Source: Escherichia coli (GTDB taxonomy: Bacteria; Pseudomonadota; Gammaproteobacteria; Enterobacterales; Enterobacteriaceae). Taken from it: a stretch of 64,000 bases of DNA. Each line of letters opens with the position of its first letter. The first letter of the stretch is position 1. Made by a program: the position numbers. Positions 15,001 to 18,000 of this stretch are shown here, piece after piece. The DNA lies in NCBI RefSeq assembly GCF_041886205.1, contig NZ_CP169029.1; one strand, written 5' to 3'.

Positions 15001-18000
15001 GCACAATATGAATCAACACAGCATTTGCTCGCGGCGGGCTATCGTCAACCGTTATGCTTCTGGCTACCGGAAAGTGCGTTGGCAACAGGGTATCGTCGGC
15101 AGGGATTTGAGCAGGCCTGGCGTGATGCTGGACGAGATCTGGCTGAGGTGAAACAATTTCACATGGCAACAGGTGATGATCACTACACCGATCTCGCAAG
15201 TTTACTCAATGACCACTTCAAATCGGGCAAACCAGATTTTGATGTTCTGATATGTGGTAACGATCGCGCAGCCTTTGTGGCTTATCAGGTTCTTCTGGCG
15301 AAGGGGGTACGAATCCCGCAGGATGTCGCCGTAATGGGCTTTGATAATCTGGTTGGCGTCGGGCATCTGTTTTTACCGCCACTGACCACAATTCAGCTTC
15401 CACATGACATTATCGGGCGGGAAGCTGCATTGCATATTATTGAAGGTCGTGAAGGGGGAAGAGTGACGCGGATCCCTTGCCCGCTGTTGATCCGTTGTTC
15501 CACCTGATATTATGTTAACCCAGTAGCCAGAGTGCTCCATGTTGCAGCACAGCCACTCCGTGGGAGGCATAAAGCGACAGTTCCCGTTCTTCTGGCTGCG
15601 GATAGATTCGACTACTCATCACCGCTTCCCCGTCGTTAATAAATACTTCCACGGATGATGTATCGATAAATATCCTTAGGGCGAGCGTGTCACGCTGCGG
15701 GAGGGGAATACTACGGTAGCCGTCTAAATTCTCGTGTGGGTAATACCGCCACAAAACAAGTCGCTCAGATTGGTTATCAATATACAGCCGCATTCCAGTG
15801 CCGAGCTGTAATCCGTAATGTTCGGCATCACTGTTCTTCAGCGCCCACTGCAACTGAATCTCAACTGCTTGCGCGTTTTCCTGCAAAACATATTTATTGC
15901 TGATTGTGCGGGGAGAGACAGATTGATGCTGCTGGCGTAACGACTCAGCTTCGTGTACCGGGCGTTGTAGAAGTTTGCCATTGCTTTCTGATAGCTCGCG
16001 CGCCAGCGTCATGCAGCCTGCCCATCCTTCACGTTTTGAGGGCATTGGCGATTCCCACATATCCATCCAGCCGATAACAATACGCCGACCATCCTTCGCT
16101 AAAAAGCTTTGTGGTGCATAAAAGTCATGCCCGTTATCAAGTTCAGTAAAATGCCCGGATTGTGCAAAAAGTCGTCCTGGCGACCACATTCCGGGTATTA
16201 CGCCACTTTGAAAGCGATTTCGGTAACTGTATCCCTCAGCATTCATTCCCTGCGGGGAAAACATCAGATAATGCTGATCGCCAAGGCTGAAAAAGTCCGG
16301 ACATTCCCACATATAGCTTTCACCCGCATCAGCGTGGGCCAGTACGCGATCGAAGGTCCATTCACGCAATGAACTGCCGCGATAAAGCAGGATCTGCCCC
16401 GTGTTGCCTGGATCTTTCGCCCCGACTACCATCCACCATGTGTCGGCTTCACGCCACACTTTAGGATCGCGGAAGTGCATGATTCCTTCTGGTGGAGTGA
16501 GGATCACACCCTGTTTCTCGAAATGAATACCATCCCGACTGGTAGCCAGACATTGTACTTCGCGAATTGCATCGTCATTACCTGCACCATCGAGCCAGAC
16601 GTGTCCGGTGTAGATAAGTGAGAGGACACCATTGTCATCGACAGCACTACCTGAAAAACACCCGTCTTTGTCATTATCGTCTCCTGGCGCTAGCGCAATA
16701 GGCTCATGCTGCCAGTGAATCATATCGTCGCTGGTGGCATGTCCCCAGTGCATTGGTCCCCAGTGTTCGCTCATCGGGTGATGTTGATAAAACGCGTGAT
16801 AACGATCGTTAAACCAGATCAGGCCGTTTGGATCGTTCATCCATCCGGCAGGAGGCGCGAGGTGAAAATGGGGATAGAAAGTGTTACCCCGGTGCTCATG
16901 AAGTTTTGCTAGTGCGTTTTGCGCCGCATGCAATCGAGTTTGCGTCATTTTAATCATCCAGGTTAAGCAAATTTGGTGAATTGTTAACGTTAACTTTTAT
17001 AAAAATAAAGTCCCTTACTTTCATAAATGCGATAAACATCACAAATGTTAACGTTAACTATGACGTTTTGTGATCGAATATGCATGTTTTAGTAAATCCA
17101 TGACGATTTTGCGAAAAAGAGGTTTATCACTATGCGTAAGTCAGATGAATTTAAGGGAAAAAAATGTCAGCCAAAGTATGGGTTTTAGGGGATGCGGTCG
17201 TAGATCTCTTGCCAGAATCAGACGGGCGGCTACTGCCTTGTCCTGGCGGCGCGCCAGCTAACGTTGCGGTGGGAATCGCCAGATTAGGCGGAATAAGTGG
17301 GTTTATAGGTCGGGTCGGTGATGATCCTTTTGGGGCGTTAATGCAAAGAACGCTGCTAACTGAGGGAGTCGATATCACGTATCTGAAGCAAGATGAATGG
17401 CACCGGACATCCACGGTGCTTGTCGATCTGAACGATCAAGGGGAACGTTCATTTACGTTTATGGTCCGCCCCAGTGCCGATCTTTTTTTAGAGACGACAG
17501 ACTTGCCCTGCTGGCGACATGGCGAATGGTTACATCTCTGTTCAATTGCGTTGTCTGCCGAGCCTTCGCGTACCAGCGCATTTACTGCGATGACGGCGAT
17601 CCGGCATGCCGGAGGTTTTGTCAGCTTCGATCCTAATATTCGTGAAGATCTATGGCAAGACGAGCATTTGCTCCGCTTGTGTTTGCGGCAGGCGCTACAA
17701 CTGGCGGATGTCGTCAAGCTCTCGGAAGAAGAATGGCGACTTATCAGTGGAAAAACACAGAACGATCGGGATATATGCGCCCTGGCAAAAGAGTATGAGA
17801 TCGCCATGCTGTTGGTGACTAAAGGTGCAGAAGGTGTGGTGGTCTGTTATCGAGGACAAGTTCACCATTTTGCTGGAATGTCTGTGAATTGTGTCGATAG
17901 CACGGGGGCGGGAGATGCGTTCGTTGCCGGGTTACTCACAGGTCTGTCCTCTACGGGATTATCTACAGATGAGAGAGAAATGCGACGAATTATCGATCTC

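What the first reader, a model, noticed from the sequence alone, without database searches (positions are those of the whole stretch)
16982..17058. Two identical 13-bp palindromes (TGTTAACGTTAAC) in the cscA-cscK divergent promoter region
Exact copies at 16982-16994 and 17046-17058, each a tandem pair of GTTAAC half-sites, lie between the divergent cscA and cscKB start codons, where LacI-family operators would be expected. Their 64-bp spacing could support repressor looping over both promoters.
Basis: seen in the sequence. Interest (0 to 1): 0.4.

Follow-up and report, generated by a model that had tools for sequence, protein, structure and literature searches.

The report
Known CscR operators of sucrose genes
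The two repeated palindromes are the already-described binding sites of the sucrose repressor CscR between the E. coli cscA and cscKB genes; they are real and deeply conserved, but nothing here supports the suggested DNA loop.

Summary
TGTTAACGTTAAC occurs exactly at 16982-16994 and 17046-17058. The identical unit is really 14 bp (TGTTAACGTTAACT), and the palindrome is the 12-bp core GTTAACGTTAAC, centred on CG. Centres are 64 bp apart, between cscA (ATG at 16948, minus strand) and cscK (ATG at 17164). This is far beyond chance.

It is not new. Jahreis et al. 2002, as cited in PMC11251922 and PMC3938415, described two copies of a 12-bp inverted repeat here as putative CscR operators. An operator mutation de-represses the regulon.

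My comparison of about 73 CscR-ortholog loci from more than 20 genera confirms the sites. Nearly all carry them (consensus ATGTTAACGTTAACAT). In most loci the layout is fixed: O-left, 47 bp, CRP site, 17 bp, O-right, 24 bp, second CRP-like site.

Promoter and CRP architecture therefore explains the 64-bp spacing. Looping is unsupported:
- CscR ends where the LacI core ends, so it has no tetramerisation helix.
- Gilliamella (57 bp) and Proteus (68-69 bp) have spacings about half a helical turn off.
- The interval between the operators holds only the cscA promoter.

Verdict: already known, low interest.

The parts
16983..16994 (.). O1, the cscA-proximal CscR operator. This is the 12-bp perfect palindrome GTTAACGTTAAC; the 16-bp site is 16981-16996, TTGTTAACGTTAACTT.
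   Evidence: Exact match. Conserved at this position in CscR-ortholog loci. Described as a putative CscR operator overlapping the cscA transcription start (PMC11251922, citing Jahreis 2002).
17047..17058 (.). O2, the cscKB-side CscR operator. Same 12-bp palindrome; the 16-bp site is 17045-17060, ATGTTAACGTTAACTA.
   Evidence: Exact match. Conserved in orthologous loci 17 bp from CRP1 and 24 bp from CRP2. A 'cscKB operator' point mutation de-represses the regulon (PMC3938415).
17028..17043 (.). CRP1, a cAMP-CRP site: TGCGATAAACATCACA, 9 of 10 matches to TGTGA-N6-TCACA, centre 17035.5.
   Evidence: a CRP-like site scoring 7-10 of 10 sits at the same offset, 46-47 bp from O-left and 17 bp from O-right, in about 35 of 43 loci. 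A background score of 8 or more occurs in 1.3% of comparable windows. A Crp site next to the cscA -35 is reported in PMC11251922.
17069..17084 (.). CRP2, a second and weaker CRP-like site: TGTGATCGAATATGCA, 7 of 10, centre 17076.5.
   Evidence: Conserved block in alignment A1. It lies 24 bp from the O-right centre in most loci and scores up to 10 of 10 in Providencia. PMC3938415 states, citing Sabri 2013, that the bidirectional csc promoter has two cAMP-Crp sites.
17002..17007 (-). Inferred -10 element of the cscA promoter: TATTTT on the minus strand. It implies a start near 16995, with CRP1 at about -41 and O1 covering about +1 to +12.
   Evidence: TATTTT or TATCTT is found at the same offset from CRP1 in Escherichia, Citrobacter and Pluralibacter. 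This is inference; no transcription start data were available.
17125..17130 (+). Inferred -10 element of the cscKB promoter: TATCAC. It implies a start near 17137, with CRP2 at about -61 and O2 at about -85.
   Evidence: a conserved block GTTTATCAC, with TATCAA, TATGAT or TATACT in other genera, sits 48-52 bp from the CRP2 centre. This is inference.
15515..16948 (-). cscA, sucrose hydrolase (invertase), transcribed leftward from the regulatory region.
   Evidence: ORF; RefSeq annotation; NCBIfam TIGR01322 at 480 bits.
17164..19397 (+). cscKB operon: cscK fructokinase (17164-18078) and cscB sucrose permease (18150-19397).
   Evidence: NCBIfam NF006957 and TIGR00882, both above their cut-offs.
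14512..15507 (+). cscR, the LacI-family repressor (331 aa) that binds the operators. It is convergent with cscA.
   Evidence: Annotated as sucrose operon repressor CscR. It matches LacI-family models, all below the curated cut-offs of the named equivalogs. It aligns with LacI residues 5-329 and has no C-terminal extension.

Best explanation
The two palindromes are the operators of the LacI-family sucrose repressor CscR. They sit in the shared control region of the divergent cscA and cscKB transcription units of an E. coli csc locus. Without inducer, one CscR dimer binds each dyad-symmetric site (consensus ATGTTAACGTTAACAT). O1 lies on the inferred start of the CRP-dependent, class II-type cscA promoter and blocks RNA polymerase there. 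O2 lies upstream of the cscA promoter, packed between two cAMP-CRP sites: 17 bp from CRP1 and 24 bp from CRP2, centre to centre. The most likely action of O2 is to interfere with CRP-dependent activation, especially of cscKB, whose inferred promoter has CRP2 near -61. The 64-bp operator spacing follows from this promoter and CRP layout. Shown here: the sites exist, they are non-random, they co-occur with CscR orthologs, and the geometry is fixed. Shown in the literature: CscR-dependent repression, cAMP-CRP dependence and an operator up-mutation. Inferred: the transcription starts, the -10 elements and the way O2 acts.
For: Exact sites and their rarity. Gene context of cscR, cscA, cscK and cscB. 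Published identification as putative CscR operators, with a de-repressing operator mutation and cAMP-Crp sites (PMC11251922; PMC3938415; both cite Jahreis et al. 2002). About 73 CscR-ortholog loci from Escherichia to Aeromonas and Gilliamella carry the same palindrome in the sucrose-gene control region. In roughly 1.2 Mb of flanks only one exact copy lies elsewhere. Distant LacI paralogs at 25-28% identity carry a different motif, GTTAGCGCTAAC. The fixed layout O-left, 47, CRP1, 17, O-right, 24, CRP2 holds across two different gene arrangements. Both operators are unchanged in six Escherichia alleles, whereas the CRP1 spacer and the flanks vary. Conserved -10-like hexamers sit at class II and class I distances from the CRP sites.
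Against: No binding experiment (EMSA or footprint) for CscR was found in the held literature, and the papers still call the operators 'putative'. I could not read Jahreis 2002 or Sabri 2013, so the mutated base and any mapped starts are unknown to me. If the cscKB start is near 17137, O2 lies at about -85, an unusual place for a sole operator, so how it acts on cscKB is uncertain. A plain sigma-70 consensus scan finds no promoter in the region; that is expected for activator-dependent promoters but gives no independent support. In the Klebsiella/Enterobacter-type loci no conserved leftward -10 was evident.
Confidence: 0.92

Rival explanations
1. Repression loop. CscR bridges O1 and O2, as a tetramer or as two interacting dimers. 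This forms a 64-bp loop that traps the promoter DNA and makes repression of both operons cooperative.
For: Two identical, strong operators lie 64 bp apart, about 6.1 turns at 10.5 bp per turn, so roughly on one face. Spacings of 62-64 bp are kept in most genera. A CRP site inside the interval could supply a bend. From my own knowledge: Lac repressor can form loops of this size, and dimeric GalR loops with the help of HU.
Against: CscR stops at the position of LacI residue 329 and has no counterpart of the LacI tetramerisation helix. The 64 bp splits into 47 and 17 bp, each conserved relative to CRP1, so no phasing constraint is needed to explain it. Gilliamella (57 bp) and Proteus (68-69 bp) keep operator pairs about half a turn out of phase with 63-64 bp. 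Providencia shows only one strong site. The interval contains only the cscA promoter, not the inferred cscKB promoter. The literature treats the sites as one operator per promoter.
Confidence: 0.15
2. CytR-like anti-activation. CscR bound at O2 contacts or displaces the two CRP dimers that flank it, switching off CRP activation of both divergent promoters at once. O1 is a conventional roadblock for cscA only.
For: O2 lies between two CRP-like sites at invariant distances of 17 and 24 bp, giving 41 bp between CRP centres, in about 35 of 43 loci from many genera. With the inferred starts, the CRP sites fall near -41 and -82 for cscA and near -61 and -102 for cscKB, all on activation-competent faces. 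The operator mutation assigned to cscKB de-represses the regulon although no operator overlaps the inferred cscKB core promoter.
Against: The starts are inferred, not mapped. CRP2 is weak in E. coli, at 7 of 10. The CRP-CRP distance of 41 bp differs from the 52-53 bp of CytR-regulated promoters (my knowledge). CscR is not a CytR ortholog: 137 bits against a cut-off of 436. No interaction data exist.
Confidence: 0.25
3. A chance repeat, or a site for something other than CscR: tandem HpaI sites, a different regulator, or a recombination scar.
For: GTTAAC is an HpaI recognition sequence and the region is AT-rich at 30% GC. The 14-bp direct repeats can recombine: strain Trh52 carries an exact 64-bp deletion between them.
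Against: The 12-mer is expected 0.004 times per window. It co-occurs strictly with CscR orthologs across genera and across gene arrangements. The symmetry extends to positions +/-7 and +/-8 of the consensus, as expected for a dimeric helix-turn-helix protein. There is published genetic evidence.
Confidence: 0.02

Closest known systems
CscR operators of the E. coli EC3132 and W csc regulon (Jahreis et al. 2002; Sabri et al. 2013; Stephens et al. 2024, PMC11251922)
   Same: The same element. Two copies of a 12-bp inverted repeat lie between cscA and cscK, flanking the cscA -35/-10, with cAMP-Crp site(s). One operator is the site of a de-repressing mutation.
   Different: Nothing essential. The window carries a rare allele of the intergenic region: two changes in the CRP1 spacer plus two others, all outside the operators.
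ScrR operators O1 and O2 at the scrY promoter of pUR400 and Klebsiella (Jahreis and Lengeler 1993, as summarised in PMC11251922)
   Same: A LacI-family sucrose repressor with two inverted-repeat operators bracketing the -35/-10, the downstream one on the start site, and a CRP site upstream.
   Different: ScrR is a non-orthologous regulator from the FruR branch with a different motif, 14-bp repeats and a PTS-type pathway. The promoter is unidirectional.
The lac operon control region: O1 at +11, CRP at -61.5, auxiliary O3 at -82 (my knowledge)
   Same: The inferred cscKB promoter has CRP2 near -61 and O2 near -85, like CRP and O3 in lac. The repressor belongs to the LacI family.
   Different: No operator lies at the cscKB start. 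CscR lacks the tetramerisation helix that makes the O1-O3 loop possible. The second operator serves the divergent cscA promoter.
CytR/CRP anti-activation at deoP2 and cddP (my knowledge)
   Same: A LacI-family repressor site sandwiched between two CRP sites, one of them at about -41.
   Different: The CRP sites are 41 bp apart rather than 52-53 bp. The CscR operator is a strong perfect palindrome, whereas CytR sites are weak. CscR is not a CytR ortholog. Cooperativity is untested.

Membership tests
LacI/GalR-family operator, specifically a CscR operator | Dyad-symmetric site of 12-20 bp with a central CG | tested here: met
   GTTAACGTTAAC is a perfect palindrome centred on CG. The consensus of orthologous sites extends the symmetry to 16 bp, ATGTTAACGTTAACAT.
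LacI/GalR-family operator, specifically a CscR operator | Lies in the promoter region of the operon(s) next to the cognate LacI-family regulator gene | tested here: met
   Both sites lie in the 215-bp cscA-cscK intergenic region. cscR is adjacent and matches LacI-family models.
LacI/GalR-family operator, specifically a CscR operator | The motif co-occurs with regulator orthologs in other genomes (phylogenetic footprint) and differs for paralogs | tested here: met
   About 73 loci with CscR at 48-96% identity carry the motif in the sucrose-gene control region. The exception is L018, which also lacks cscA. Paralogs at 25-28% identity carry GTTAGCGCTAAC.
LacI/GalR-family operator, specifically a CscR operator | Operator mutation gives de-repression in vivo | not testable with these tools
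   Reported in the literature: PMC11251922 and PMC3938415, citing Jahreis 2002, and isolated again as Tn69. The mutated base could not be retrieved.
LacI/GalR-family operator, specifically a CscR operator | Direct, inducer-sensitive binding by purified CscR | not testable with these tools
   No EMSA or footprint was found in the held papers, and the inducer is described as not experimentally determined.
LacI-type repression loop | Two operators within looping distance | tested here: met
   64 bp centre to centre.
LacI-type repression loop | The repressor has a tetramerisation module (C-terminal heptad helix, as in LacI residues 340-357) | tested here: not met
   CscR residue 331 aligns with LacI residue 329, and nothing follows. 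PDB LacI chains align only over residues 5-313.
LacI-type repression loop | Helical phasing of the operators is preserved among orthologous loci | tested here: inconclusive
   Spacing is 62-64 bp in most genera, but 57 bp in Gilliamella and 68-69 bp in Proteus. The common spacing is also explained by fixed operator-CRP distances.
LacI-type repression loop | Repression at one promoter depends on the distal operator | not testable with these tools
   Needs reporter fusions carrying single and double operator mutations.
CytR-type anti-activation complex | Repressor site flanked by two CRP sites | tested here: met
   CRP1 lies 17 bp to the left of the O2 centre and CRP2 24 bp to the right, conserved across genera.
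CytR-type anti-activation complex | The repressor is CytR or a CytR ortholog | tested here: not met
   The best NCBIfam hit is the CytR model, but at 137 bits against a cut-off of 436.
CytR-type anti-activation complex | Cooperative repressor-CRP binding | not testable with these tools
   Needs footprinting with CscR and cAMP-CRP together.

The most novel reading that the evidence does not exclude
O2 is not a simple roadblock. It is the centre of a compact CRP-CscR-CRP assembly: an operator clamped between two CRP sites 41 bp apart, with invariant 17-bp and 24-bp offsets from Aeromonas to Escherichia. In this reading one repressor dimer switches off CRP activation of both divergent promoters, either by CytR-like contact or by excluding CRP. 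This would explain why an operator about 85 bp upstream of the inferred cscKB start controls cscKB. It would also explain why the whole cassette has been kept intact while the gene on its right-hand side changed from cscK or cscB to cscR.
Probability: 0.2. Interest if true: 0.45.

Novelty: already known. Interest (0 to 1): 0.12.

Why it matters
The csc regulon is the basis of sucrose-fed industrial E. coli strains such as E. coli W. De-repression by cscR deletion or operator mutation is a standard engineering step, so knowing exactly where the operators and CRP sites lie has practical value. That knowledge already exists. This check adds three things. The operator-CRP cassette is far more widespread and geometrically rigid than the published five-species comparison shows. 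The spacing is explained by promoter architecture. The looping idea has no support from the sequence. None of this changes the current picture of the system.

Tried and rejected
1. I tried to read the primary papers, Jahreis 2002 (PMC135337 and DOI) and Sabri 2013 (DOI and PMC3553775). Neither is held, so I relied on two open papers that cite them.
2. I looked for the exact base of the cscKB operator mutation and for mapped transcription starts. Neither is in the held text, and no supplements are held.
3. A sigma-70 consensus and terminator scan of 16900-17200 found nothing. This is uninformative for CRP-dependent promoters.
4. I searched for a CscR-like site upstream of cscR, as a test of autoregulation, and elsewhere in the window. 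The best match upstream of cscR has 4 of 12 mismatches. Outside the csc control region no 16-mer match has fewer than 4 mismatches.
5. I considered a cscKB promoter lying between the operators or directly abutting O2 (candidates TATGAC, GAATAT, TAGTAA). I rejected these because the hexamers are not conserved and would put the CRP sites at non-activating positions.
6. Operator pairs apparently 58 or 70 bp apart are register artefacts. GTTAAC is a 6-bp self-repeat, so shifted matches appear.
7. The perfect palindrome TAACGATCGTTA inside cscA (16800-16811) is not a third operator. Its centre is 2 bp longer, and it encodes a conserved protein motif.

Full report
**1. The observation.**
The sequence TGTTAACGTTAAC is present exactly at 16982-16994 and 17046-17058, and nowhere else in the window. 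Three details need correcting.
- The 13-mer is not itself a palindrome. The perfect palindrome is the 12-bp core GTTAACGTTAAC (16983-16994 and 17047-17058), centred on CG.
- The exactly repeated unit is 14 bp, TGTTAACGTTAACT.
- GTTAAC is self-complementary, so the site is both a tandem and an inverted repeat.

The centres are 64 bp apart. The window has 19 perfect 12-bp palindromes, and this is the only one that recurs. Its expected count in 64 kb is 0.004. Only 0.28% of simulated 215-bp regions of the same composition contain any exact 13-mer repeat.

**2. Context.**
The window is E. coli chromosome, 100% identical to strain 6EVA over 5.5 kb. The genes, in order, are:
- dsdA, minus strand, 12705-14033
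- a dsdX remnant, minus strand, 14051-14269
- cscR, plus strand, 14512-15507
- cscA, minus strand, 15515-16948
- cscK, plus strand, 17164-18078
- cscB, plus strand, 18150-19397

These come, and the family assignments were checked. Both palindromes lie in the 215-bp region between the divergent cscA and cscK start codons. About half of complete E. coli genomes carry this region (2,662 of 5,426).

**3. What is already published.**
PMC11251922 (Front Microbiol 2024) makes four relevant statements.
- Jahreis et al. 2002 identified two copies of a 12-bp inverted repeat between cscA and cscK as putative CscR operators.
- They flank the cscA -35/-10, with the downstream one over the transcription start and a Crp site next to the -35.
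- They are conserved in five species.

[quoted passage not shown] It re-isolated the cscKB operator point mutation, which confers growth on low sucrose. Citing Sabri 2013, it states that the bidirectional promoter has two cAMP-Crp sites. I could not read the primary papers. From my memory of the Jahreis abstract, the second class of fast-growing mutants was a 'cscKo operator mutation'. The finding is therefore a rediscovery of a known element.

**4. Independent test by comparative genomics.**
A scan of one genome per species with CscR returned 80 loci. About 73 encode CscR orthologs at 48-96% identity. The genera are Escherichia, Citrobacter, Pluralibacter, Tatumella, Pectobacterium, Samsonia, Rahnella, Rosenbergiella, Providencia, Proteus, Gilliamella and other Orbaceae, Enterobacter, Klebsiella, Raoultella, Serratia, Kosakonia, Lelliottia, Erwinia, Yersinia, Buttiauxella, Silvania and Aeromonas.

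Nearly all of these loci carry GTTAACGTTAAC, with 0-1 mismatch, in the control region of the sucrose genes. The one CscR-ortholog locus without the site (L018) also lacks cscA. In roughly 1.2 Mb of flanking DNA only one exact copy lies outside such a region. Distant LacI paralogs at 25-28% identity carry a different palindrome, GTTAGCGCTAAC.

The consensus of the orthologous sites is the 16-bp dyad ATGTTAACGTTAACAT. This supports reading the site as an inverted repeat bound by a dimer. The E. coli sites match 14 of 16 positions.

The cassette is found in two gene arrangements. In one the layout is cscA, operators, cscK or cscB. In the other, the Klebsiella/Enterobacter type, it is a cscB-like gene plus cscA, operators, cscR.

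Within Escherichia, six alleles keep both operators unchanged. Differences fall in the CRP1 spacer and the flanks.

**5. Anatomy and spacing.**
Alignment and offset counting show four conserved blocks at fixed distances. In window coordinates:

| Element | Centre | Distance to the next element |
|---|---|---|
| O1 | 16988.5 | 47 bp |
| CRP1 (TGCGATAAACATCACA) | 17035.5 | 17 bp |
| O2 | 17052.5 | 24 bp |
| CRP2 (TGTGATCGAATATGCA) | 17076.5 | – |

This layout, with 46 or 47, then 17, then 24 bp, holds in about 35 of 43 loci examined. A CRP score of 8 or more out of 10 occurs in only 1.3% of background windows.

Conserved -10-like hexamers lie at the right distances from the CRP sites.
- Leftward: TATTTT or TATCTT at 17007-17002. 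This implies a start near 16995, with CRP1 near -41 (class II) and O1 at about +1 to +12.
- Rightward: TATCAC at 17125-17130, with TATCAA, TATGAT or TATACT in other genera. This implies a start near 17137, with CRP2 near -61 (class I) and O2 near -85.

These starts are inferences. I found no mapping data. The leftward assignment agrees with the published description of the cscA promoter.

**6. The looping hypothesis.**
The 64-bp spacing is the sum of two separately constrained distances, operator to CRP1 and CRP1 to operator. No phasing constraint is needed to explain it. Where the first distance changes, as in Gilliamella (39 bp, total 57 bp), the operator pair is kept although the phase shifts by about 0.7 turn. 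Proteus has 68-69 bp, and Providencia has only one strong site.

CscR (331 aa) aligns with LacI from residue 5 to residue 329 and then ends (I supplied the LacI sequence from memory, and it is consistent with the PDB matches). It therefore lacks the C-terminal helix that makes LacI a tetramer. The closest solved structure is 6ndi, a homolog of about 55% identity and the same length.

The O1-O2 interval contains only CRP1 and the cscA core promoter, so a loop 'over both promoters' does not match the geometry. Looping by dimer-dimer contact, possibly helped by the CRP bend, remains possible but has no support. I give it about 0.15.

**7. How it most likely works.**
CscR dimers bind O1 and O2 when no inducer is present. 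O1 occludes the cscA start. O2 is packed between two CRP sites and most likely interferes with CRP-dependent activation. This would explain why the operator mutation assigned to cscKB de-represses the regulon although no operator overlaps the inferred cscKB core promoter.

Whether O2 acts by excluding CRP, by a CytR-like contact, or through a closer promoter that I have not recognised cannot be decided here. That is the most novel reading left open. I give it a probability of about 0.2 and modest interest.

**8. Verdict.**
The feature is real, functional and conserved, and already known since 2002. The operator interpretation is right and the looping interpretation is unsupported. Interest is low.

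Noticed in passing
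L085 (E. coli O84:H7 strain Trh52, NZ_CP047600.1), corresponding to window 16982-17045: This strain has an exact 64-bp deletion that collapses the two 14-bp repeats into one copy. The deletion removes CRP1 and the inferred cscA core promoter, presumably by recombination or slippage between the repeats. At most 5 of 2,662 genomes have less than 80% coverage of the region.
   Followed up: partly
window 16949-17163, especially 17034, 17037, 16960 and 17065: The window carries a rare allele of the csc control region: only 13 of 2,662 genomes are at least 99% identical. The common allele has TGCGATGAATATCACA in CRP1, against TGCGATAAACATCACA here. All differences lie outside the operators.
   Followed up: partly
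L029-L074 (Enterobacter, Klebsiella oxytoca group, Raoultella, Serratia, Kosakonia, Erwinia, Yersinia, Aeromonas and others): csc-like loci carry the same operator-CRP cassette: CscR at about 55% identity, CscA at about 55%, and an MFS transporter only about 39% identical to CscB. Here the cassette sits between the transporter-hydrolase operon and cscR itself. [quoted passage not shown] At the protein and operator level the system is much more widespread.
   Followed up: partly
L028, L034, L036, L037, L044, L064, L071 (Gilliamella) and L033, L046 (Orbaceae), about 160-290 bp upstream of cscR: A second pair of CscR-type sites lies only 14 bp apart (20 bp in L046) between a cscB-like gene and cscR, in addition to the 57-bp pair at cscA-cscK. 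Ravcheev et al. 2014 (PMC4052901) report a peak of overlapping LacI-family sites at about 13 bp.
   Followed up: no
window 16800-16811: A perfect 12-bp palindrome, TAACGATCGTTA, lies inside cscA, 183 bp from O1. It resembles the operator arms but has a centre 2 bp longer, and it encodes the conserved FNDRY motif of the invertase. It is probably coincidental.
   Followed up: no
window 14270-14511: No CscR-like site lies upstream of cscR in the E. coli arrangement; the best match has 4 of 12 mismatches. E. coli cscR therefore seems not to be autoregulated through this motif, unlike the Klebsiella-type loci where cscR shares the operator cassette.
   Followed up: partly
window about 19540-20500 (from the annotation of L001): Downstream of cscB the matching RefSeq record annotates remnants of mobile DNA: a DUF4942 fragment, a frameshifted integrase Arm-binding domain and a YeeU-family antitoxin. 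Together with the dsdX remnant next to cscR, this fits the published view of csc as an island at the argW/dsd hotspot.
   Followed up: no
PDB 6ndi: A solved structure labelled only 'Transcriptional regulator' (334 aa, 2 chains) aligns with CscR over residues 1-330 at E = 1e-113. It appears to be a CscR-type regulator of the Klebsiella/Enterobacter kind and could be used to check the oligomeric state.
   Followed up: no
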